Below are positions 10,179 to 24,926 of a DNA stretch of 37,226 nucleotides, piece after piece. The position numbers and the translations under genes are program-made. This stretch comes from a virus. Its lineage: Duplodnaviria; Heunggongvirae; Uroviricota; Caudoviricetes. The notes beneath the pieces are model-generated. The model was not told the origin of the DNA. It did no database searches and saw only the letters and a program-made list of their open reading frames with translations. The stretch is taken from the IMG/VR virus record IMGVR_UViG_2529292736_000004. One strand, given 5' to 3'. The number at the start of each line of letters is the position of its first letter. The stretch's first letter is position 1.

Positions 10179-10263
10179 AGTCAGAGATAACAATCAACTA
10201 ATACTGTTTTGTTGATTTTTGCTTGTAATTGGCGTTCTGGTCTGATTTTTGTGGAGTAAGTTG

Positions 10264-10647
10264 ATGCGTGATATTCAGATGGTTCTTGAGCGTTGGGGAG
10301 CGTGGGCGGCTAATAATCATGAAGATGTGACCTGGTCGTCCATTGCCGCCGGTTTTAAGGGATTAATTACTTCAAAAGTAAAATCTCGCCCGCAATGTTG
10401 TGACGATGACGCGATGATTATTTGCGGGTGCATGGCCCGTCTGAAAAAGAACAACAGCGATTTGCACGATTTATTAGTAGATTATTATGTAGTCGGTATG
10501 ACATTCATGTCACTGGCAGGTAAGCATTGCTGCTCTGATGGTTATATCGGGAAAAGGTTACAGAAGGCTGAGGGCATAATTGAAGGGATGTTAATGGCAT
10601 TAGATATCCGGTTAGAGATGGATATCGTTGTTAATAACTCTAATTAA
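10264..10647 (+). CDS. quuD: Q-family late-gene antiterminator (QuuD-like), 127 aa
   Basis: [62 protein letters not shown]... matches DLP12 QuuD; Cys-rich zinc-binding region; ATG at 10264. Confidence 0.85.
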
Positions 10648-10835: not shown

Positions 10836-11918
10836 TTAGAACTGGTAAACCATACCTACAGCAACGATATCATCGGTAGCAACGCCAGATGCTTTCGTGA
10901 AATCGCTCTTATCAATCAGGTTGATTTTGTAATCAACAAAAGTGGACATATTTTTGTTGAAGTAATAGGTTGCACCTACATCAATATATTCAACCAGGTC
11001 CTGATCACCCCACGCACCCAAGTCTTTTCCTTTAGATTGCAGGTAAGCAACGGACGGACGCAGACCGAAGTCGAACTGATATTGTGCAACTACTTCGAAG
11101 TTTTGTGCTTTGTTGGCAATATGGTTATTACCAAAAACAGTCATGTTCTGGGTTTCAGAATAGGTGGTAGCCAGATAGATGTTGTTCGCATCATATTTCA
11201 GACCAGCTGCCCATACTTCAGCATTTTGACCAGATGCATTCAGGCTGTTGTTACCGTAGATAACCTGATTATTAGTGCGGTCAGATTTAGCATAGGTTGC
11301 ACCTACACCGAATCCTTCATACTCATAAGTAGTGGAGAAACCGAAACCATCACCATTAGCTTCAGTTACGTCAGTGCGGTCATTTTTACCCTGATACTGA
11401 GCAGCAAAGTTCAGACCATCAACCAGACCAAAGAAGTCGTTGTTACGATAAGTTGCAACACCAGTGGTGCGACCAGTCATGAACACATCTGTTTGGGTCC
11501 AGGTATCGCCACCGAATTCTGGCAGAACGTCAGTCCACGCACCGATGTCGTATGCTACACCGTAGTTACGGCCGTAATCGATTGAGCCGTAGTCACCGAA
11601 TTTCAGGCCTGCAAATGCAAGACGGGTTTTGTCTTTGGAGGAACCTTGAGATTCAGCGCGGTTGCCTTTGAATTCATATTCCCACTGACCGAAACCAGTC
11701 AGTTGATCGTTGATTTGGGTTTCACCTTTGAAGCCAAGACGGGCATAAGTAGTATCACCATCATCTGCATCATTAGAGGAGAAGTAGTGCTTAGCATTAA
11801 CTTTCCCGTACAGATCCAGCTTGTTACTGTCTTTATTATAAATTTCAGCTGCCTGAGCAGACATCGCCATCAGTACTGATGCAGCTACAGCAGAAATTGC
11901 CACTGTTAATTTTTTCAT
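10836..11918 (-). CDS. nmpC: Outer-membrane porin, OmpC/OmpF family (NmpC-like), apparently intact, 360 aa
   Basis: Signal peptide [23 protein letters not shown] followed by a classic porin sequence ([17 protein letters not shown]...GMVYQF). Antisense to the phage late operon between Q and the holin. Confidence 0.9.
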
Positions 11919-12380: not shown

Positions 12381-12468
12381 AGTCTCGATATTAGCTGATA
12401 ACCCAATACCTGAGTTATTCACTGACTGAACCGCCCCGGGTTTCCTGGAGAGTGTTTTATCTGTGAAC

Positions 12469-13359
12469 TCAGGCTGCCAGATCATCGTTTCCGATGGAAG
12501 CATAATAAGCTTTTTCTGCTTCTGCCGGTGGGATATGGCCCAGCCTTTCCAGCAATCGTCGATTGTTATACCAGTCCACCCACGTGAGTGTGGCCAGTTC
12601 CACTTCTGTCCGGTTTTTCCAGCTCTTACGGTGTATTACCTCCGCTTTGTAAAGGCCATTGATGCTCTCCGCCATCGCGTTGTCATACGAGTCACCAGTA
12701 CTTCCTGTTGATGCCAGTAATCCGGCTTCCTTAAGCCGCTGTGTGTAGGCCAGCGATACATACTGAGAACCTTTATCACTGTGATGGACTGTGCCGGACG
12801 GTCGACGGGCCCATAACGCCTGCTCCAGAGCATCCAGCACGAATGTCGTTTCCATAGACGATGAGACCCGCCACCCCACGATGTATCCGGCAAACACATC
12901 AATGATGAACGCCACATAGACGACCCCCTGCCATGTGCTGACGTAAGTAAAATCAGCCACCCACAACTGGTCAGGACGTTCTGCCACAAACTGACGGTTT
13001 ACGCGGTCGCCTGCGGCAACGGCTTTCCGGCTGACGGTAGTGCGGACCTTTTTACCCCGGAGAACACCGGCAAGTCCCATAACCGCCATGAGGCGCGCCA
13101 CTGTACATCTGGCTACCCTGATTCCTTCCCGTAACAACTGACGCCAGACTTTACGCACACCGTATACCTGATGATTCCCATCGTATACGCGCAGTATCTC
13201 TTTCTTCAGCCAGTCATCGCGCTGCGCACGGGCACTGCGTTTATCAGGATGATGTCGCTGTTGCTGACAGTGGTAATACGTTGACGGGGCAATATGTAGT
13301 TCACTGCATACCGGTCCGACCCCGTACAGCTTACGCAGCTTATCCAGCAGTGGCATCAC
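12469..13359 (-). CDS. IS629 OrfB (DDE integrase/transposase catalytic subunit), 296 aa
   Basis: IS3-family catalytic-domain sequence (…[48 protein letters not shown]…[11 protein letters not shown]…). Confidence 0.85.
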
Positions 13360-13682
13360 TTTTTCCAGAGGCGGTCGAACTCCGCCTTCGCAAAATAAGC
13401 GGAAGCCTGGCGAAGGATATCGTTACTGCGGCGCAGTTCACGATTTTCACGTTCCAGCTCTTTCAGACGCTGACGTTCAGCGGTGGTGAGCCCGCCATCA
13501 CCGCCTCCGGTATCCCGCTCATGCTGGCGTACCCAGACACGCAGAGTCTCCGGTGTACAGTCAATCTTTGGGGCAATGGAACAAATTGCCGCCCACTGTG
13601 AGTCATATTCGCCCTGACTTTCCAGAACCATACGAATCGCCCTCTGACGGACTTCGGGGGAAAAACGAGTATTTTTAGTCAT
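13356..13682 (-). CDS. IS629 OrfA (HTH transposase subunit), 108 aa
   Basis: [40 protein letters not shown]...; overlaps orfB by 4 nt, typical of IS3-family -1 frameshift elements. Confidence 0.85.
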
Positions 13683-13804
13683 CCTGTTTACCTCTTTCTC
13701 AGGGAGTTTAGTCTCCAGGATTCCCGGGGCGGTTCAGACTCCGAGTCTGTTACGTTTCGTAGTATTCCCTCAATTTACACCCGCTTTGTCTGCGAGGTGG
13801 GGTT

Positions 13805-14517: not shown

Positions 14518-14972
14518 ACAGAGTAACCGCGATTATCTCCGCTCTGGTTATCTGCATCATCGTCGGCCTGTCATGGGCTGTTAATCATTACCGTGATAAC
14601 GCCATTACCTACAAAGCCCAGCGCGACAAAAATGCCAGAGAACTGAAGCTGGCGAACGTGGCAATTACTGACATGCAGATGCGTCAGCGTGATGTTGCTG
14701 CGCTCGATGCAAGATACACAAAGGAGCTTGCTGATGCTAACGCGACTATCGAAAGTCTCCGTGCTGATGTTTCTGCTGGGCGTAAGCGCCTGCAAGTCGC
14801 CGCCACCTGTGCAAAGTCAACGACCGGAGCCAGCGGCATGGGCGATGGAGAAAGCCCAGGACTTACAGCAGATGCTGAACTCAATTATTACCGTCTCCGA
14901 AGTGGAATCGACAAGATAACCGCGCAGGTTAACTACCTGCAGGAATACATCAGGACGCAATGCCTGAAATAA
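14514..14972 (+). CDS. rzpD: Rz-type i-spanin, 152 aa
   Basis: N-terminal transmembrane segment ([20 protein letters not shown]) and coiled-coil-like remainder; ATG overlaps the lysozyme stop. Confidence 0.8.
14767..14919 (+). CDS. rzoD: Rz1-type o-spanin lipoprotein, embedded in the +1 frame of Rz, about 50 aa
   Basis: [25 protein letters not shown]...: lipobox VSAC and a proline-rich mature region, wholly inside Rz. Confidence 0.7.
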
Positions 14973-15003
14973 TTTTTTTGCAAATCACAAAGTCCATTTA
15001 ATG

Positions 15004-15026
15004 AGCCTCGCGATGCGGGGCTTTTT
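15004..15026 (+). terminator. Intrinsic terminator after the lysis cassette
   Basis: gcctcgc-gat-gcggggc stem (one mismatch) followed by ttttt. Confidence 0.5.
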
Positions 15027-15033
15027 GCAATAA

Positions 15034-15058
15034 ATGCGTACCGCAACGCATGTTTTTT
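15034..15058 (+). terminator. Second intrinsic terminator after the lysis cassette
   Basis: atgcgt-accgca-acgcat hairpin followed by gtttttt. Confidence 0.55.
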
Positions 15059-15173
15059 ACACCGAACCTGCCCCTTTGGAATGGGCCTTTGAGGATACCA
15101 GTTAGTGCTGGCGAGCCTCGGTGGGCTGGTTTCCTGTGCGGCAAAGGTTCATTTCAAAGAGTAGGTACACGCT

Positions 15174-15671
15174 ATGAAATCATTAACCCTCTTCAATCAA
15201 CCAATTCGTATCGGTGAAGATGGCATGATCTGCCTCACTGATATGTGGAAAGCCAGTGGTAAAAGTGAATCTGAATCGCCTTACCACTACCTGCGAAACA
15301 AGCAGACCAAAGAGTTCTTAGCCGAGCTGGAGAAAAACCACGAATCTGTGGTTTTTACTGAGCGCGGTGTACACGGTGGAACATATGGCGGGAAGTTTGT
15401 TGCTTACGATTATGCGGCTTGGTTAAACCCCGGGTTCAAGTACGCGGCCTATAAAGTCCTCGATGACTACTTCACCGGAGAACTTCAGCATCGCAACAGC
15501 TTAAGTGCGCAGCTCAACATGAAATGTCATGAGTTTGACCAGAAGAAAGACATGGCGAGCTTCTGCGGACAAGGGCTGGCAGCATGGCGCTATACGAAGC
15601 CAGTGTTGGTCGCTGAGATTAACTCCCTGGCTAACCAGCTGCAGATTACGATCCCCGGGCTTCCGGGATGA
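15174..15671 (+). CDS. KilA-N-like domain protein, 165 aa
   Basis: N-terminal segment (FNQPIRIGEDGMICLTDMWKASGK...NKQTKEFLAEL) resembles the KilA-N fold; assignment is by motif resemblance only. Confidence 0.5.
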   Translation: MKSLTLFNQPIRIGEDGMICLTDMWKASGKSESESPYHYLRNKQTKEFLAELEKNHESVVFTERGVHGGTYGGKFVAYDYAAWLNPGFKYAAYKVLDDYFTGELQHRNSLSAQLNMKCHEFDQKKDMASFCGQGLAAWRYTKPVLVAEINSLANQLQITIPGLPG

Positions 15672-15931
15672 GTGATCGTGTTATTGAATGCGCCTCCAGA
15701 GCGGGGCGCGACTTCTCAGAGTTCATGAAAGGCGAGAAGGGCATGATGGAAGCATTGGCCTCGGTGGATGAGTTTGGCGAGCAGCTGCGCCTCAACGGCT
15801 GTGTCAATCATCACTTTGTTAGCTACATGATGCGGAACTCGATCATGCAGGCATTCATAGACATGGCAAAAGCCGAGAGGAAAGAAGAGCGCCGGCGTAA
15901 GCGAGCGGAAGCAAAAGCAAAAGTGAAGTAG
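15668..15931 (+). CDS. Hypothetical protein, 87 aa, lysine/arginine-rich C-terminus
   Basis: ORF translationally coupled to the upstream gene (ATGA overlap). Confidence 0.5.
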   Translation: MSDRVIECASRAGRDFSEFMKGEKGMMEALASVDEFGEQLRLNGCVNHHFVSYMMRNSIMQAFIDMAKAERKEERRRKRAEAKAKVK

Positions 15932-16155
15932 CCATTACAAAGCCCATTTACGGGTGGGCTTGATAATGAAACCGGAATTTATTCTGGGCCACCAGTTAAC
16001 GGCAGTACCACGAAACAACCCAAGCCAGTAAGTGGGGAAATAACACCGGCAGCCACTGAAAGATGAACCTCCTGCCTTATGGCAAAAAAGATTCTTTGTG
16101 GTGGCGGACTGATGGAAAGACATCCTAATTTCAGCCAAACATTGAAGGAGTTGTT

Positions 16156-16227
16156 ATGTCAGCAGAAGGTTTCAATAACCCATCAAAATTCCGGGATGAG
16201 TGGGATAGCAGCGTAAAGAGTAAGTGA
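16156..16227 (+). CDS. Putative 23-aa peptide (MSAEGFNNPSKFRDEWDSSVKSK) with a strong RBS
   Basis: GAAGGAG 7 nt upstream of the ATG; followed by the same hairpin/GATAATG module that follows the 15668..15931 gene. Confidence 0.25.
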   Translation: MSAEGFNNPSKFRDEWDSSVKSK

Positions 16228-16309
16228 TGCCATCACAAAAGCCATTCCCTACAGAGTGGCTTTGATAATGGCTTATACCCTACACGGGATAACTTAACTG
16301 ATATCCCTT

Positions 16310-16474
16310 TTAAAGGATAAAGGTATTCAAGCCTGACACATCATGCGCTGTATCGTCGCCGTATTCCCGTATTAACAGAGACCGTAGCCCGACGGGGAAC
16401 TCCTTCTGCGCGAGTGTGCGGGAATAATCAAAAACGATGCACACCGGGGTTACCGGGTACACATATTTCATCAT
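16310..16474 (-). CDS. Putative small protein, 54 aa (MMKYVYPVTPVCIVFDYSRTLAQKEFPVGLRSLLIREYGDDTAHDVSGLNTFIL)
   Basis: Hand translation; below the track cut-off. Coding status uncertain. Confidence 0.25.
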   Translation of the reverse strand: MMKYVYPVTPVCIVFDYSRTLAQKEFPVGLRSLLIREYGDDTAHDVSGLNTFIL

Positions 16475-16519
16475 GCCAGCGAGTCCGGTTCTGGCACGGA
16501 AGAAACCGGACGTTATGAT

Positions 16520-16930
16520 TTAGTGCGGAAATATTTGTGTAGAGTTCTGAATGTTCTCAGTAAAGAGTAATGAATTATCAAAGGTATAGTAATACCTTTT
16601 GTTTTCGTGGATATTTGTAATCCATCTGAAAACCCCTGCTGTAGCAAGATTTTTCCTGTATTCGTAAAATGATAACTCTCCTGATTTGAATCCTTTTAAG
16701 GTGGCTTCTATAAGGCATTTATTTTTTGAAAATCTTACATTTACAACCTTACCCTGTCCTTTTATTAAAACCGTATTATCGTTTTCAAGAACAAGATGAA
16801 TATTCTCTGTGGCTAAATAGTAAATGTAATGTGAGACATTGTGACGTTTTAGTTCAGAATAAAACCAGTGATAGTTTAAATTATTTCGCACTTTATCGAA
16901 TATTTGTTTAAAAATGGCAACCTGAGCCAT
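16520..16930 (-). CDS. ybcV: YbcV/YdfO-like protein (DUF1398 family), about 136 aa
   Basis: [61 protein letters not shown]... resembles E. coli prophage YdfO/YbcV from memory; low-GC region. Confidence 0.7.
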
Positions 16931-16987
16931 TGTAGTACCTTCCATGTGATATGAGGGGGCGTAGTCTGCACGATTATCTAAATTGCT

Positions 16988-17221
16988 TCAATCTGGTCTA
17001 ACCTGTTTTCTGAGCAATTCAGTAATGTCACTCTTTTCTTTGTTTGCTTCAGGCGAAACTCTTTTTTCTGAGCACAGTCTCCGGCGGCAGGCTTCAATGA
17101 CCCAGGCTGAGAAATTCCCGGACCCTTTTTGAACAAGAGCGATGTTAATTTGTTCAATCATTTGGTTAGGAAAGCGGATGTTGCGGGTTGTTGTTCTGCG
17201 GGTTCTGTTCTTCGTTGACAT
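16988..17221 (-). CDS. ylcI: YlcI/YnfO-like small protein (DUF3950 family), 77 aa
   Basis: MSTKNRTRRTTTRNIRFPNQMIEQINIALVQKGSGNFSAWVIEACRRRL... resembles DLP12 YlcI from memory; sits directly before cos, as ylcI does before nohD. Confidence 0.65.
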   Translation of the reverse strand: MSTKNRTRRTTTRNIRFPNQMIEQINIALVQKGSGNFSAWVIEACRRRLCSEKRVSPEANKEKSDITELLRKQVRPD

Positions 17222-17379: not shown

Positions 17380-17600
17380 TATCATTTTGCGGGTCCTTTC
17401 CGGCGATCCGACAGGTTACGGGGCGGCGACCTCGCGGGTTTTCGCTATTTATGAAAATTTTCCGGTTTAAGGCGTTTCCGTTCTTCTTCGTCATAACTTA
17501 ATGTTTTTATTTAAAATACCCTCTGAAAAGAAAGGAAACGACAGGTGCTGAAAGCGAGCTTTTTGGCCTCTGTCGTTTCCTTTCTCTGTTTTTGTCCGTG
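17380..17600 (+). other. cos: Lambda cos site (cosQ-cosN-cosB); 12-nt cohesive end GGGCGGCGACCT at 17421..17432
   Basis: …CGACAGGTTACG|GGGCGGCGACCTCGCGGGTTTTCGCTATTTATGAAAATTTTCCGGTTTAAGGCG… matches the lambda right-end/left-end junction; cosB runs up to the IS66 insertion point at 17608. Confidence 0.9.
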
Positions 17601-17608
17601 GAATGAAC

Positions 17609-17986
17609 GTAAGCGGCTCGCCAGAACCGTATTGATATTTACTGAGAAGTCAGATCAACTTTCCAGGGCAACAGATCGCGTACCCGGTTTGCCGGCCAGT
17701 CCTGGATATGCTCAATAACGTAACGCAGCCATTTTTCTGGCTCTACATTGTTCAGACGGCATGTGCCGATCAGCGAGTACAACACCGCCGCATGTTCGCC
17801 ACCGCTGTCGGAACCCGCGAAGAGCCAGTTTTCCGGCCTACCGCCACTCCCCGTAAGGCGTTCTCTGCGATGTTGTTGTCGATTTCCACCCAGCCATTAC
17901 TGCAGTACACGTTCAGTGCATCCCACTGTTTCAGCAGGTATGCGAACGCTTTTGCCGTATCTGAGTGACGCGACAGTGTTTTCATC
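17609..17986 (-). repeat. Partial (378-bp) copy of the IS66-family element end (terminal repeat plus tnpC 3' end), in tandem with the full copy
   Basis: 17609..17986 aligns with 17987..18364 with about five differences (for example TTTTCC versus TTTTTCC, and two changes within cagtgcatccc versus cagggcctccc); both copies start GTAAGCGGCTCGCC. Confidence 0.85.
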
Positions 17987-18016
17987 GTAAGCGGCTCGCC
18001 AGAACCGTATTGATAT

Positions 18017-19588
18017 TTACTGAGAAGTCAGATCAACTTTCCAGGGCAACAGATCGCGTACCCGGTTTGCCGGCCAGTCCTGGATATGCTCAATAACGTA
18101 ACGCAGCCATTTTTCTGGCTCTACATTGTTCAGACGGCATGTGCCGATCAGCGAGTACAACACCGCCGCATGTTCGCCACCGCTGTCGGAACCCGCGAAG
18201 AGCCAGTTTTTCCGGCCTACGGCCACTCCCCGTAAGGCGTTCTCTGCGATGTTGTTGTCGATTTCCACCCAGCCATTACTGCAGTACACGTTCAGGGCCT
18301 CCCACTGTTTCAGCAGGTATGCGAACGCTTTTGCCGTATCCGAGTGACGCGACAGTGTTTTCATCTGTTCCTGTATCCAGTCATACAGTGACTGCATCAG
18401 TGGAGCCGCTCTGGCTTTTCTTGCTGCCAGACGCTGTTCTGCTGAACATCCCCAGACTTCTGCCTCGATGACATACAGTTCACCGATACGCTGCAGGGCT
18501 TCCGTGGTGATGTCGGTTGGCACTCTTGCATGCACATCGTGGATTTTTCTCCGGGCATGGGCCATACACGCGGCTTCCGTTATTCTGCCGGATTCGTATA
18601 ACGCCCGGTAACCACCGTAAGCATCTGCCTGAAGCACACCGCTGTAACCGGCCAGGTGATTCTGTGGATGGATACCTTTCCGGTCCGGGCTGTACGCGAA
18701 CCAGACCGCCGGGGGCATCTGTGAACCGGCGTTACGGTCATCACGGACATAGACCCACAGCCGGGCAGTTCTTGTTTTACCACTGCCCGGCTCCTGGACC
18801 GGAACGGGGATATCATCCGCATGGACTTTACCGGGCATCAGCACATACTGGCGCAGCACGTCATACAGCGGCTCCAGCAGTTCAGCAACGGCACCGGTCC
18901 AGCGCCCCAGCGTGGCGCGGCTCAGTTCCACGCCCTGACGAAGGTATATTTCTGACTGGCGGTATAACGGCAGATGGTCTGCATACTTCCCGGTGACGAT
19001 ATGAGCCAGAAGCCCCGCTCCGGCATAACTGCGTGCAATGGGTTTTGAAGGTACTGGTGCCTGCACGATATGGTCGCACCGGCAACAGGCCAGTTTCGGA
19101 CGTTGTGTTTCGATAACCTTAAAAGCGCTGCTGATAAGCTCCAGTTGCTCTGACACATCACACCCCAGAGGACTGAGGTCACCACCACAGGCCGGGCAGC
19201 ATTCCTCTTCCGGCCGGATGACCCGGGTTTCACGGGGAAGTGAGGCCGGTAACGGCTTACGGGCTGAAGACTGGCGCAGGGCGGATGGCAGTACCGGGTC
19301 ATATTGCTCACCCAGCGTTTCCGCCATTTCTTCCTGAAGTGCGCTGATTCGCTCCTGGGCTTCCTGTATCTGCCGTTCGGTTTTAGCGCGAAGTTTTTCT
19401 GAGCTTTTACCGAACTGCATACGTTGCAGTTTCGCAACCAGCGCCTTCAGCCGGTTGATTTCGGAAGCATAAGCCGCCACCCGCTGTGAGAGCAGGCGGT
19501 TGTATTCAGCCATCTGGCGTATGGTGTCCTGTTGCGTCTGCAACAGTGCCCGCAGGCGGGCGTTCTCATGAGCAAGTGAGGTGTCCAT
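18017..19588 (-). CDS. tnpC: IS66-family transposase TnpC (orf3), 523 aa
   Basis: N-terminal coiled-coil/leucine-zipper region, CxxC zinc-finger-like motifs (CPACGG...CCRCDH) and a DDE-type catalytic region typical of IS66 transposases. Confidence 0.85.
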
Positions 19589-19607
19589 ATCCTCACTTTA
19601 CAACGGG

Positions 19608-19955
19608 TTATATGCGGATGCCAGCGCGTTCCGTTCGTTTCGGGTGCTTCCAGTTGATACCTTCAAGAAGCATAGATAACTGAGCCGGAGTAAGGTGCAC
19701 CTTGCCGTCACGGGTAACCGGCCAGACGAAGCGGCCCCGCTCCAGGCGTTTGGTGAAGAGGCACAGTCCGTCACTGTCAGCCCACAACACTTTTATCTGG
19801 TCACCCCGGCGTCCGCGGAAGATGAACAGATGCCCGGAGAACGGGTCATCCTTCAGGACGTTCTGAACTTTTGATGCCAGGCCGTTAAAACCATTTCGCA
19901 TGTCGGTGATACCGGCAACCAGCCAGATACGCGAACCGGCAGGGAGAGATATCAT
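19608..19955 (-). CDS. tnpB: IS66-family TnpB (orf2), 115 aa
   Basis: MISLPAGSRIWLVAGITDMRNGFNGLASKVQNVLKDDPFSGHLFIFRGRRGDQIKVLWADSDGLCLFTKRLERGRFVWP: canonical IS66 Orf2. Confidence 0.85.
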   Translation of the reverse strand: MISLPAGSRIWLVAGITDMRNGFNGLASKVQNVLKDDPFSGHLFIFRGRRGDQIKVLWADSDGLCLFTKRLERGRFVWPVTRDGKVHLTPAQLSMLLEGINWKHPKRTERAGIRI

Positions 19956-20605
19956 TAGTGGCTGCTCCCTTTCATTTCGCGGATAAGTGTCTGTAATAAC
20001 GCCGGTGTCAGTTCACCTTTCAGCCTGAGAGTTCCGGCCGGCAGAACCAGCTCACAGCACAGACTGTCGGGCGGTGTATTTATCTGTTCAGGTATCTGCA
20101 CTGGTGCCGGGATTTTATTATCCGGCTCCGGAGTTAACGTCACGGGAAGTAGCGATGTTTCATGTTCGCCGGTCGGCTGCAGGCCGCCGTTACGCCAGAG
20201 ATGCCGCCAGTTAAAGAGCAGGTTATCGTTGATTCCGTTCTCACGAGCTATTTGTGCGACACAGGCACCGGGTAAAAGAGTTTGCTGAACAAGCCTCCAT
20301 TTAAACTCCGGTGAAAATCGGTTCCGGCGGATTTTCTCTGTTTTCACAGGCTGAGTCACTGTCGGGGCTGAAGGGTATCGCCCCGGGAACAGAGCCCGGG
20401 CCAGTTGCACGCAGGAATATTCTCCGGAAAGAGGCCAGTCAGTGAATACCTGGTGAAATCGCCTCACCAGAGAAAAAATGGCGGTTTTGCTGATACCGGT
20501 CTGCGCAGAAATGCGCGGGTACGACAGTGACTCGTCAAATCTCAGTTGTAGCACACGCAGGATCAATTCCGGATTGTCTGCCAGTACCGCTTTTCGTGCA
20601 TTCAT
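19955..20605 (-). CDS. tnpA: IS66-family TnpA (orf1), 216 aa with an N-terminal HTH extension
   Basis: Contains ...RRNRFSPEFKWRLVQQTLLPGACVAQIARENGINDNLLFNWR..., typical of IS66 orfA. Confidence 0.75.
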   Translation of the reverse strand: MNARKAVLADNPELILRVLQLRFDESLSYPRISAQTGISKTAIFSLVRRFHQVFTDWPLSGEYSCVQLARALFPGRYPSAPTVTQPVKTEKIRRNRFSPEFKWRLVQQTLLPGACVAQIARENGINDNLLFNWRHLWRNGGLQPTGEHETSLLPVTLTPEPDNKIPAPVQIPEQINTPPDSLCCELVLPAGTLRLKGELTPALLQTLIREMKGSSH

Positions 20606-20699
20606 CTTAAATGTCCCTTTACTGCGAAAATGGACATTAGTATCGGAAACAGGAAAGGGAGGCGAAAGACGGTTTAAATGAGACGGTTACGAATGAACA

Positions 20700-21219
20700 A
20701 TGGAAGTCAACAAAAAGCAGCTGGCTGACATTTTCGGTGCGAGTATCCGTACCATTCAGAACTGGCAGGAACAGGGAATGCCCGTTCTGCGAGGCGGTGG
20801 CAAGGGTAATGAGGTGCTTTATGACTCTGCCGCCGTCATAAAATGGTATGCCGAAAGGGATGCTGAAATTGAGAACGAAAAGCTGCGCCGGGAAGTTGAA
20901 GAACTGCGGCAGGCCAGCGAGACAGATCTCCAGCCAGGGACTATTGAGTACGAACGCCATCGACTTACGCGTGCGCAGGCCGACGCACAGGAGCTGAAAA
21001 ATGCCAGAGACTCCGCTGAAGTGGTGGAAACCGCATTCTGTACTTTCGTGCTGTCGCGGATCGCAGGTGAAATTGCCAGTATTCTCGACGGGATCCCCCT
21101 GTCGGTGCAGCGGCGTTTTCCGGAACTGGAAAACCGACATGTTGATTTCCTGAAACGGGATATCATCAAAGCCATGAACAAAGCAGCCGCGCTGGATGAA
21201 CTGATACCGGGGTTGCTGA

Positions 21220-21245
<26 letters not shown>
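20700..21245 (+). CDS. Nu1: Terminase small subunit Nu1, 181 aa
   Basis: MEVNKKQLADIFGASIRTIQNWQEQGMPVLRGGGKGNEVLYDSAAVIKWYAERDAEIENEKLRREVEELRQA... matches lambda Nu1. Confidence 0.95.

Positions 21246-24926
<3,681 letters not shown>

What the first reader, a model, noticed from the sequence alone, without database searches (positions are those of the whole stretch)
17601..20698. IS66-family element inserted between cosB and the Nu1 start codon, with an 8-bp target duplication
The lambda sequence GTGGAATGAACAATGGAAGTC is interrupted so that GAATGAAC appears on both sides of about 3.1 kb of IS DNA (17601..17608 and 20691..20698). This leaves cosN and cosB intact but moves Nu1-A roughly 3.1 kb away from cos and changes the sequence immediately 5' of the Nu1 ATG, which may affect its ribosome-binding context. 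Late transcripts would have to cross an antisense IS66 to express terminase and all head/tail genes. The prophage's ability to package is therefore doubtful, although terminase acts at cos in trans.
Basis: seen in the sequence. Interest (0 to 1): 0.6.

Follow-up and report, generated by a model that had tools for sequence, protein, structure and literature searches.

The report
IS66-family insertion between lambda cos and Nu1
A common bacterial jumping gene of the IS66 family has landed between the DNA-packaging site (cos) and the first packaging gene (Nu1) of a lambda-like prophage; the insertion is real and cleanly bounded, but it is an ordinary kind of event.

Summary
GAATGAAC occurs at 17601-17608 and 20691-20698, flanking 3,082 bp of IS66-family DNA. 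Removing that DNA plus one 8-mer gives a cos-Nu1 sequence 100% identical over 451 bp to phages PhiR11_1 and PhiR68_2, and 99.1% identical to lambda.

The insert is not one canonical IS. It is a complete 2,704-bp element (17987-20690; tnpA, tnpB and tnpC intact, minus strand) preceded by a 378-bp fragment (17609-17986) carrying a second copy of its tnpC-side end. The same 3.08-kb composite sits at three other sites, each with its own 8-bp duplication: ACCGGCTA on another contig of this genome, and TAATCAGA and GAACAGGA on ETEC plasmids. So it moves as a unit.

The cohesive end and the R3, R2 and R1 sites are intact. Sequence upstream of Nu1 changes only from position -10, and the native Shine-Dalgarno is already weak. 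The late operon already crosses several antisense genes downstream of an intact Q gene.

Larger threats to phage production are genome oversize (about 54 kb, extrapolated) and a frameshift in gene O. That frameshift may be a sequencing error, because the window is a draft contig.

Verdict: real but ordinary, and low interest.

The parts
17421..17432 (+). Lambda cohesive-end sequence GGGCGGCGACCT (lambda bp 1-12; right half of cosN)
   Evidence: Exact match to the first 12 bases of NC_001416.
17473..17585 (+). cosB: R3 17473-17488, R2 (inverted) 17528-17544, R1 17570-17585. All are intact and lie upstream of the insertion.
   Evidence: The R-element sequences were located. The region is 100% identical to phage PhiR11_1. 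Naming these as R sites rests on established lambda literature recalled from memory.
17601..17608 (.). Left copy of the 8-bp target-site duplication GAATGAAC (lambda bp 182-189)
17609..17986 (-). 378-bp fragment of an IS66-family element: an outer IRR plus the 3' end of tnpC, broken by a 1-nt deletion in a T run at 17829. The residual ORF 17770-17985 hits PF03050.
   Evidence: It duplicates 17987-18365, with 100% identity over the first 225 nt and 97% beyond. Pfam hit. Allele comparison.
17987..20690 (-). Complete 2,704-bp IS66-family element (ISCro1-related) with imperfect terminal inverted repeats at about 17987-18013 and 20664-20690
   Evidence: It is 99.8% identical over its full length to a copy on ETEC plasmid p300709_97, and 94.8% identical over 85% of its length to copies that PGAP names ISCro1 family.
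18017..19588 (-). tnpC, the DDE transposase, 523 aa
   Evidence: PF03050 (E 1.7e-102), PF13005, PF13007 and PF13817. NF033517 scores 472 bits against a cutoff of 180.
19608..19955 (-). tnpB accessory protein, 115 aa. Its start codon overlaps the tnpA stop codon by 1 nt, and tnpC starts 19 nt downstream of its stop.
   Evidence: PF05717 (E 4.7e-40), NF033819, junction sequences.
19955..20605 (-). tnpA accessory protein, 216 aa
   Evidence: PF01527. NF038385 scores 285 bits against a cutoff of 150.
20691..20698 (.). Right copy of the target-site duplication GAATGAAC
20700..21245 (+). Nu1, terminase small subunit, intact at 181 aa. Bases -9 to -1 are unchanged; from -10 upstream the sequence is now the IS end.
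   Evidence: PF07471 (E 3.9e-101). The exact protein is widespread in public assemblies. Junction sequence.
21220..23145 (+). gpA, terminase large subunit, intact at 641 aa
   Evidence: PF05876 and PF20454.

Best explanation
A 3.08-kb three-ended derivative of an IS66-family insertion sequence transposed into a lambda-type prophage between cosB and the Nu1 start codon. It duplicated lambda bp 182-189. The derivative is a complete 2,704-bp IS679/ISCro1-like element plus an adjacent 378-bp fragment that supplies a second IRR.

The transposase uses the outer IRR of the fragment and the IRL of the complete copy as the two ends, so the whole 3.08 kb moves as one unit and makes the family's usual 8-bp duplication.

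The insertion is recent and strain-specific. It leaves cos, Nu1 and gpA intact. Its main physical effects are to add 3,090 bp to the cos-to-cos genome length and to replace the Nu1 5' leader from position -10 upward.

Shown: the identity of the element, its boundaries, the duplication, intact neighbouring genes and cos, and mobility as a unit at other sites.

Inferred:
- In a lysogen the insertion is probably neutral.
- On induction, Q-antiterminated late transcription should cross it.
- Any loss of phage production comes mainly from genome oversize, possibly from a modest drop in Nu1 translation, and from independent lesions such as the O frameshift.
- It does not come from separating cos from the terminase genes, because terminase acts in trans.
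For: Duplication and boundaries.

Clean empty site: 100% identity over 451 bp to three phage records that lack the insertion.

IS66-family proteins: all three pass curated cutoffs. The gene layout, with the tnpA stop overlapping the tnpB start and tnpC 19 nt downstream, is.

Composite structure.

The same composite with the same internal junction at three other sites, each with its own 8-bp duplication: TAATCAGA in L003, L007 and L008, and GAACAGGA in L006; ACCGGCTA on contig AIHJ01000011.1 of the same genome.

Strain-specific: 0 of 5,426 complete E. coli genomes carry the junction. It is also absent from the species-representative genomes, the metagenome contigs and the 10 sampled contexts of the exact Nu1 protein.

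Functional points:
- Weak native Shine-Dalgarno and little change in accessibility.
- No excess of terminator-like sites and no outward promoter.
- The late operon already has antisense genes downstream of an intact Q gene.
- Window 525-37226 is 5,421 bp longer than the matching part of the 49,016-bp phage PhiR11_1.
Against: The window is a contig of a draft assembly that holds at least two copies of this repeat. The interior of the IS at this site, and specifically the 378-bp fragment, could therefore be an assembly path and not the true local structure.

The window's fragment is chimeric. Its outer 216 nt carry full-copy alleles and its inner part carries fragment alleles, with two unique changes at the switch point. 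This fits either gene conversion or mis-threading.

No functional consequence has been measured. The genome-length estimate assumes that the unseen prophage ends resemble PhiR11_1.

I recalled the IS679 name and the Tn679 experiment from memory and could not read the paper.
Confidence: 0.85

Rival explanations
1. A plain 2,704-bp IS66-family element sits at this site. On this reading the extra 378-bp fragment is an assembly artefact, made when the assembler threaded reads from the genome's other, genuinely composite copy into this locus.
For: The window is a draft contig, and the same genome has a true composite on contig 11. The window copy differs from that copy only in the outer ~235 nt of the fragment. 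There it switches from full-copy alleles to fragment alleles, with a unique 1-nt homopolymer deletion and a unique substitution right at the switch. Other homopolymer deletions in the contig suggest sequencing error.
Against: Gene conversion between the two adjacent direct repeats gives the same allele pattern. The composite demonstrably transposes as a unit to other sites, so finding it here is not surprising. Both contigs carry the repeat internally, which suggests the assembler had linking information.
Confidence: 0.2
2. The whole insertion is a misassembly that joins an IS copy to prophage reads, which was the refutation condition the first reader named.
For: It is a draft assembly with a multi-copy repeat.
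Against: Both junctions lie in one contig. They share a perfect 8-bp duplication of exactly the length this family makes, and excising the insert restores a site 100% identical to intact phages. A chance false join would not create a matching duplication at both ends (about 1.5e-5 for a given pair of 8-mers).
Confidence: 0.03
3. The composite was built in place: one IS66-family copy inserted at GAATGAAC, a second copy then inserted into the first copy's tnpC, and recombination removed the rest. On this reading it did not arrive as a ready-made 3.08-kb unit.
For: The outer fragment and the inner copy are not identical in their distal 150 nt, so two parental copies were involved at some point in the element's history.
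Against: The identical internal junction (...CAGTGTTTTCATC|GTAAGCGG...) and the same fragment length occur at three other sites, each with a different flanking duplication. The composite therefore formed once and then spread. Rebuilding it independently at the same nucleotide is very unlikely.
Confidence: 0.05
4. The insertion by itself inactivates the prophage by blocking expression of Nu1, gpA and the head and tail genes, through polarity or loss of the ribosome-binding site.
For: The G at -10 of the weak GGA Shine-Dalgarno is lost, and properly spaced pairing falls from -3.3 to -2.7 kcal/mol. There are 3.1 kb of antisense-oriented DNA between cos and Nu1.
Against: The calculated change is small and start-site accessibility does not get worse. 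Terminator-like sites are not enriched. An intact Q antiterminator gene is present, and the operon already crosses other antisense genes, including another IS. Terminase acts in trans on cos, as cosmid packaging shows (established knowledge).
Confidence: 0.2

Closest known systems
IS679 / ISCro1 group of the IS66 family (E. coli, Citrobacter rodentium)
   Same: It has three genes in the order tnpA, tnpB, tnpC, and a DDE_Tnp_IS66 transposase with zinc-finger and leucine-zipper regions. Its imperfect terminal inverted repeats of about 27 bp begin GTAA, and it makes an 8-bp target duplication. The length is 2,704 bp, which I recall as the published length of IS679. It is 94.8% identical in DNA over 85% of its length to copies that NCBI annotation names ISCro1 family.
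   Different: The tnpA-proximal ~420 bp differ from the ISCro1-named copies: tnpA is 216 aa here against 225 aa there. I could not compare it with a reference IS679 sequence, because pB171 is not in the collections. The unit that moved is 3,082 bp with an extra end.
Tn679-type construct: an intact IS679 plus an IRR-only fragment that transposes as a unit (Han et al. 2001, J Bacteriol 183:4296; recalled from memory, citation seen)
   Same: It is an intact element plus a fragment carrying only IRR. The pair behaves as one transposable unit bounded by the outer IRR and the IRL and makes 8-bp duplications. Four natural sites show this here.
   Different: This one is natural and not engineered. No cargo lies between the fragment and the intact copy, because the fragment directly abuts the inner IRR.
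IS66-family insertions in the late regions of other lambdoid prophages of E. coli
   Same: Related elements sit in R (L015), Rz (L013), bor (L001), gpA (L009, L010), intergenic DNA (L011, L012, L014), and inside cosB between R2 and R1 in strain 300709 (L002).
   Different: None is at this nucleotide. Those examined are plain IS copies, not the composite.

Membership tests
IS66 family of insertion sequences | Three consecutive genes tnpA, tnpB, tnpC on one strand | tested here: met
   The ORFs are 20605-19955, 19955-19608 and 19588-18017. NF038385, NF033819 and NF033517 all score above their curated cutoffs.
IS66 family of insertion sequences | TnpC carries the IS66-type DDE transposase domain | tested here: met
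   PF03050 E 1.7e-102, covering positions 1-283 of the 284-position profile, plus PF13005, PF13007 and PF13817.
IS66 family of insertion sequences | Imperfect terminal inverted repeats of about 20-30 bp beginning GTAA | tested here: met
   GTAAGCGGCTCGCCAGAACCGTATTGA against GTAACCGTCTCATTTAAACCGTCTTTC, 17 of 27 identical. That GTAA is the family hallmark is from memory.
IS66 family of insertion sequences | 8-bp target-site duplication | tested here: met
   GAATGAAC here. Other copies show TAATCAGA, GAACAGGA, ACCGGCTA and CCCGAAAC.
IS66 family of insertion sequences | The tnpB start overlaps the tnpA stop, and tnpC follows after about 20 bp | tested here: met
   The overlap is 1 nt (TAATG) and the gap before tnpC is 19 nt, with GAGG upstream.
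IS66 family of insertion sequences | Transposition activity | not testable with these tools
   The evidence is indirect only: four insertion sites of the same composite with different duplications, and all three ORFs intact.
IS679 specifically (named isoform) | At least 95% DNA identity to the reference IS679 of plasmid pB171 | not tested
   The reference sequence and paper were not obtainable. Only the recalled length of 2,704 bp agrees.
Lambda-type cos / terminase module | 12-nt cohesive-end sequence followed by R3, R2 and R1, then Nu1 and gpA | tested here: met
   GGGCGGCGACCT at 17421, R3 at 17473, R2 at 17528 and R1 at 17570. Nu1 hits PF07471 and gpA hits PF05876 and PF20454. The reconstructed site is 99.1% identical to lambda.

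The most novel reading that the evidence does not exclude
The 3.08-kb three-ended IS66 derivative is an actively spreading variant in ETEC-related E. coli. Its spare IRR would allow alternative end choice (2,704 or 3,082 bp). Its insertion between cosB and Nu1 would lower terminase expression and oversize the genome, turning this prophage into a locked-in element that still carries a functional cos. Such an element could be packaged only with terminase from a co-resident lambdoid helper, or after losing DNA.
Probability: 0.1. Interest if true: 0.35.

Novelty: already known. Interest (0 to 1): 0.15.

Why it matters
It matters little beyond annotation. The result shows that this prophage's packaging site and terminase genes are intact but separated by a mobile element. 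It shows that the '3.1-kb IS' should be annotated as a complete IS66-family element plus an end fragment that travels with it. It also shows that IS66-family elements litter the late regions of lambdoid prophages in E. coli. For anyone predicting whether this prophage is inducible, genome length and the O gene deserve more attention than the cos-Nu1 separation.

Tried and rejected
1. I looked for the same insertion elsewhere. I used an exact left-junction scan of the species-representative genomes, an exact right-junction scan of the metagenome contigs, a junction BLAST against 5,426 complete E. coli genomes, and a contexts look-up of the exact Nu1 protein. None found it. Only the window's own contig carries it.

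2. I considered whether cos-Nu1 is an IS66 hot spot. Mapping ten related insertions showed them scattered over R, Rz, bor, cosB, gpA and intergenic DNA. I rejected a site-specific preference. Two pairs of near-neighbour insertions (43 bp apart in cos, 12 bp apart on a plasmid) are noted but are too few to test.

3. All those insertions share the window's orientation. I rejected this as a finding, because the search tool joins only same-strand pieces, so the bias is built in.

4. The internal-junction search overcounted composites, because the tool joins the two halves of the query across normal copies. Only single-piece hits are diagnostic.

5. I tried to read Han et al. 2001 and to fetch plasmid pB171 to test IS679 identity. 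Neither is held. A literature search for IS66-family definitions and a search for the assembly accession gave nothing useful.

6. I looked for an outward-facing promoter at the IS end that might drive Nu1. None was predicted.
Full report
**Observation**

The 8-mer GAATGAAC is present at 17601-17608 and again at 20691-20698. The 3,082 bp between the copies begin GTAAGCGGCTC and end GAGACGGTTAC. These are imperfect inverted repeats that both start GTAA (17 of 27 positions match).

Nu1 (PF07471, 181 aa) starts at 20700 and gpA (641 aa) follows at 21220. The lambda cohesive-end sequence GGGCGGCGACCT is at 17421. The R3, R2 and R1 elements of cosB are at 17473-17488, 17528-17544 and 17570-17585, all upstream of the insertion.

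When 17609-20698 is removed in silico, the result is 100% identical over 451 bp to phages PhiR11_1, PhiR11_1_star and PhiR68_2, and 99.1% identical to lambda. Against NC_001416, where nu1 starts at bp 191, the duplicated target is lambda bp 182-189.

**What the insert is**

The minus strand carries three ORFs:
- tnpA at 20605-19955 (216 aa)
- tnpB at 19955-19608 (115 aa)
- tnpC at 19588-18017 (523 aa)

All three pass the curated NCBIfam cutoffs for IS66 TnpA, TnpB and TnpC. TnpC covers the whole DDE_Tnp_IS66 profile and also has the zinc-finger, leucine-zipper and C-terminal IS66 domains. The tnpB start overlaps the tnpA stop by one base, and tnpC starts 19 nt after tnpB. With the GTAA-initiated inverted repeats and the 8-bp duplication, every sequence-level defining feature of the IS66 family is met.

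Related copies at 94.8% identity are named 'ISCro1 family' by NCBI annotation. The 2,704-bp length matches what I recall for IS679. I could not test that, because neither the paper nor plasmid pB171 is held.

**The insert is a composite**

17609-17986 is a second copy of the tnpC-side end, that is IRR plus the last ~350 nt of tnpC. It is placed directly against the IRR of a complete 2,704-bp element at 17987-20690.

The same 3.08-kb arrangement, with the same internal junction, occurs on plasmids of human ETEC strains and on a second contig of the very genome the window comes from. Each location has its own 8-bp flanking duplication:
- TAATCAGA in pTW10590_102, p300709_97 and pWS1933D_126
- GAACAGGA in pWS1933D_83, only 12 bp away from the TAATCAGA site in the same plasmid backbone
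- ACCGGCTA in contig AIHJ01000011.1
- GAATGAAC in the window

Four sites with four different duplications and one internal junction mean the composite formed once and has since transposed as a unit. It uses the outer IRR and the IRL as its ends. I recall an experimental precedent, Tn679, in which an intact IS679 plus an IRR-only fragment transposed with 8-bp duplications (Han et al. 2001). I confirmed only that the citation exists.

**Caveat on assembly**

The window is the whole of contig AIHJ01000015.1 of draft assembly GCA_000250395.2. The window's composite is identical to the contig-11 copy over 17843-20690. It differs at 12 positions plus one 1-nt T-run deletion, all within 17609-17842.

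In that stretch the outer 216 nt carry the alleles of the complete copy, while the inner part carries the alleles of the plasmid-type fragment. Gene conversion between the two adjacent repeats would produce this pattern. So would an assembler that joined junction reads from a plain IS to reads from the genome's other composite.

I give the artefact about 0.2 for the fragment only. The insertion itself is secure, because each junction is short and the two junctions share the duplication.

**Distribution**

The junction is absent from all 5,426 complete E. coli genomes, from one-genome-per-species representatives and from the metagenome contigs. None of ten diverse contexts of the identical Nu1 protein has an IS next to it. 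The insertion is therefore private to this strain or a narrow lineage.

IS66-family insertions in lambdoid late regions are nevertheless common:
- in R (L015)
- in Rz (L013)
- in bor (L001)
- in gpA at two positions (L009, L010)
- in intergenic DNA (L011, L012, L014)
- inside cosB between R2 and R1 in strain 300709 (L002)

These insertions are scattered, so I see no site-specific hot spot. Their shared orientation is a consequence of how the search tool joins pieces.

**Consequences**

cos is intact and identical to that of phages that lack the insertion. Terminase works in trans on cos, which is established from cosmid packaging. Distance between cos and Nu1 is therefore not in itself a problem.

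Upstream of the Nu1 ATG, bases -9 to -1 are preserved by the duplication. From -10 upward the IS end replaces the native leader. The native Shine-Dalgarno is only GGA (-3.3 kcal/mol), and the junction gives -2.7 kcal/mol at acceptable spacing. Predicted accessibility of the start region is unchanged or slightly better (0.46 against 0.53). A modest reduction in Nu1 translation is possible but not predicted to be drastic.

For transcription, the late operon here runs through the following features:
- Q at 10249-10647, which is intact (PF06530)
- an antisense porin gene at 10836-11918
- an antisense 1,310-bp IS3-family element at 12427-13736
- S, R, Rz and a KilA-N gene
- two antisense genes, DUF1398 and DUF3950
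- cos

Crossing another antisense element is nothing new for this transcript. The IS holds no more plus-strand terminator-like sites than shuffled sequence and has no outward promoter. Q-modified polymerase ignoring terminators is established lambda biology.

**Larger obstacles to phage production**

The first obstacle is size. Window 525-37226 is 5,421 bp longer than the collinear part of PhiR11_1, a 49,016-bp phage. Of that excess, 3,090 bp come from this insertion and 1,313 bp from the other IS. If the unseen ends resemble PhiR11_1, the genome would be about 54.4 kb, or 112% of lambda. That is above the classical limit of about 105%. This is an extrapolation.

The second obstacle is gene O. 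It has a 1-nt deletion in an A run at 6490 that truncates the protein at 176 of 299 residues. Three other 1-nt deletions in homopolymer runs, at 5317, 9663 and 17829, suggest these may be sequencing errors in the draft.

**Verdict**

This is a real, cleanly bounded, strain-specific insertion of a known kind of element into a known kind of prophage. The only mildly unusual feature is that the mobile unit is a three-ended IS66 derivative, for which I recall an experimental precedent. Its functional worries are mostly not supported by what can be computed, and the factors most likely to matter lie elsewhere. Interest is low.

Noticed in passing
window 6034-6932 (deletion after 6490): The replication gene O carries a 1-nt deletion in an A run relative to close relatives. 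The ORF stops at 176 aa instead of about 299. Either the prophage is replication-defective or this is a homopolymer sequencing error in the draft contig.
   Followed up: partly
window 12427-13736: A 1,310-bp IS3-family element lies antisense between the prophage porin gene and the holin gene, flanked by a 3-bp repeat GAC. Its ends (TGAACCGCCCCGGG...) resemble what I recall of IS629, and its orfA and orfB hit PF01527 and rve.
   Followed up: partly
window 5317, 9663, 17829: There are further single-base deletions in T, G and T homopolymer runs relative to relatives. Together with the O deletion, this pattern suggests homopolymer sequencing errors.
   Followed up: no
L031 2899-5981 (contig AIHJ01000011.1 of the same assembly): A second 3,083-bp composite copy lies in the early region of a different prophage, between Ead/Ea22-like genes and a DUF7167 gene, flanked by ACCGGCTA. 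Its fragment is not frameshifted.
   Followed up: yes
L003 1501-4583 versus L006 3219-6301: Two independent insertions of the composite lie 12 bp apart in the leading region of ETEC F-type plasmids, between the ssb remnant and hok (TAATCAGA and GAACAGGA). In L005 the right-hand duplication is missing, which indicates a later rearrangement.
   Followed up: partly
L002 about 1766-4466 (strain 300709 chromosome): An ISCro1-type copy is inserted inside cosB between R2 and R1, at the equivalent of window 17558-17565 and 43 bp from this insertion. That prophage has a truncated gpA annotation.
   Followed up: partly
window 14784-17058: The segment between Rz and cos does not align with PhiR11_1 and is about 1.4 kb longer. 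It carries a KilA-N/ORF11CD3 gene (15174-15671) and an antisense DUF1398 gene in place of bor.
   Followed up: no
window 1-524: The first ~520 bases of the contig do not align with the closest relatives of the rest of the early region. I did not examine them.
   Followed up: no
window about 17559 (lambda bp ~139): There is a one-base difference from lambda between R2 and R1 (GAGGCTTTTT in lambda, GAGCTTTTT here). Phage PhiR11_1 shares it, so it is a natural variant and not an error.
   Followed up: yes
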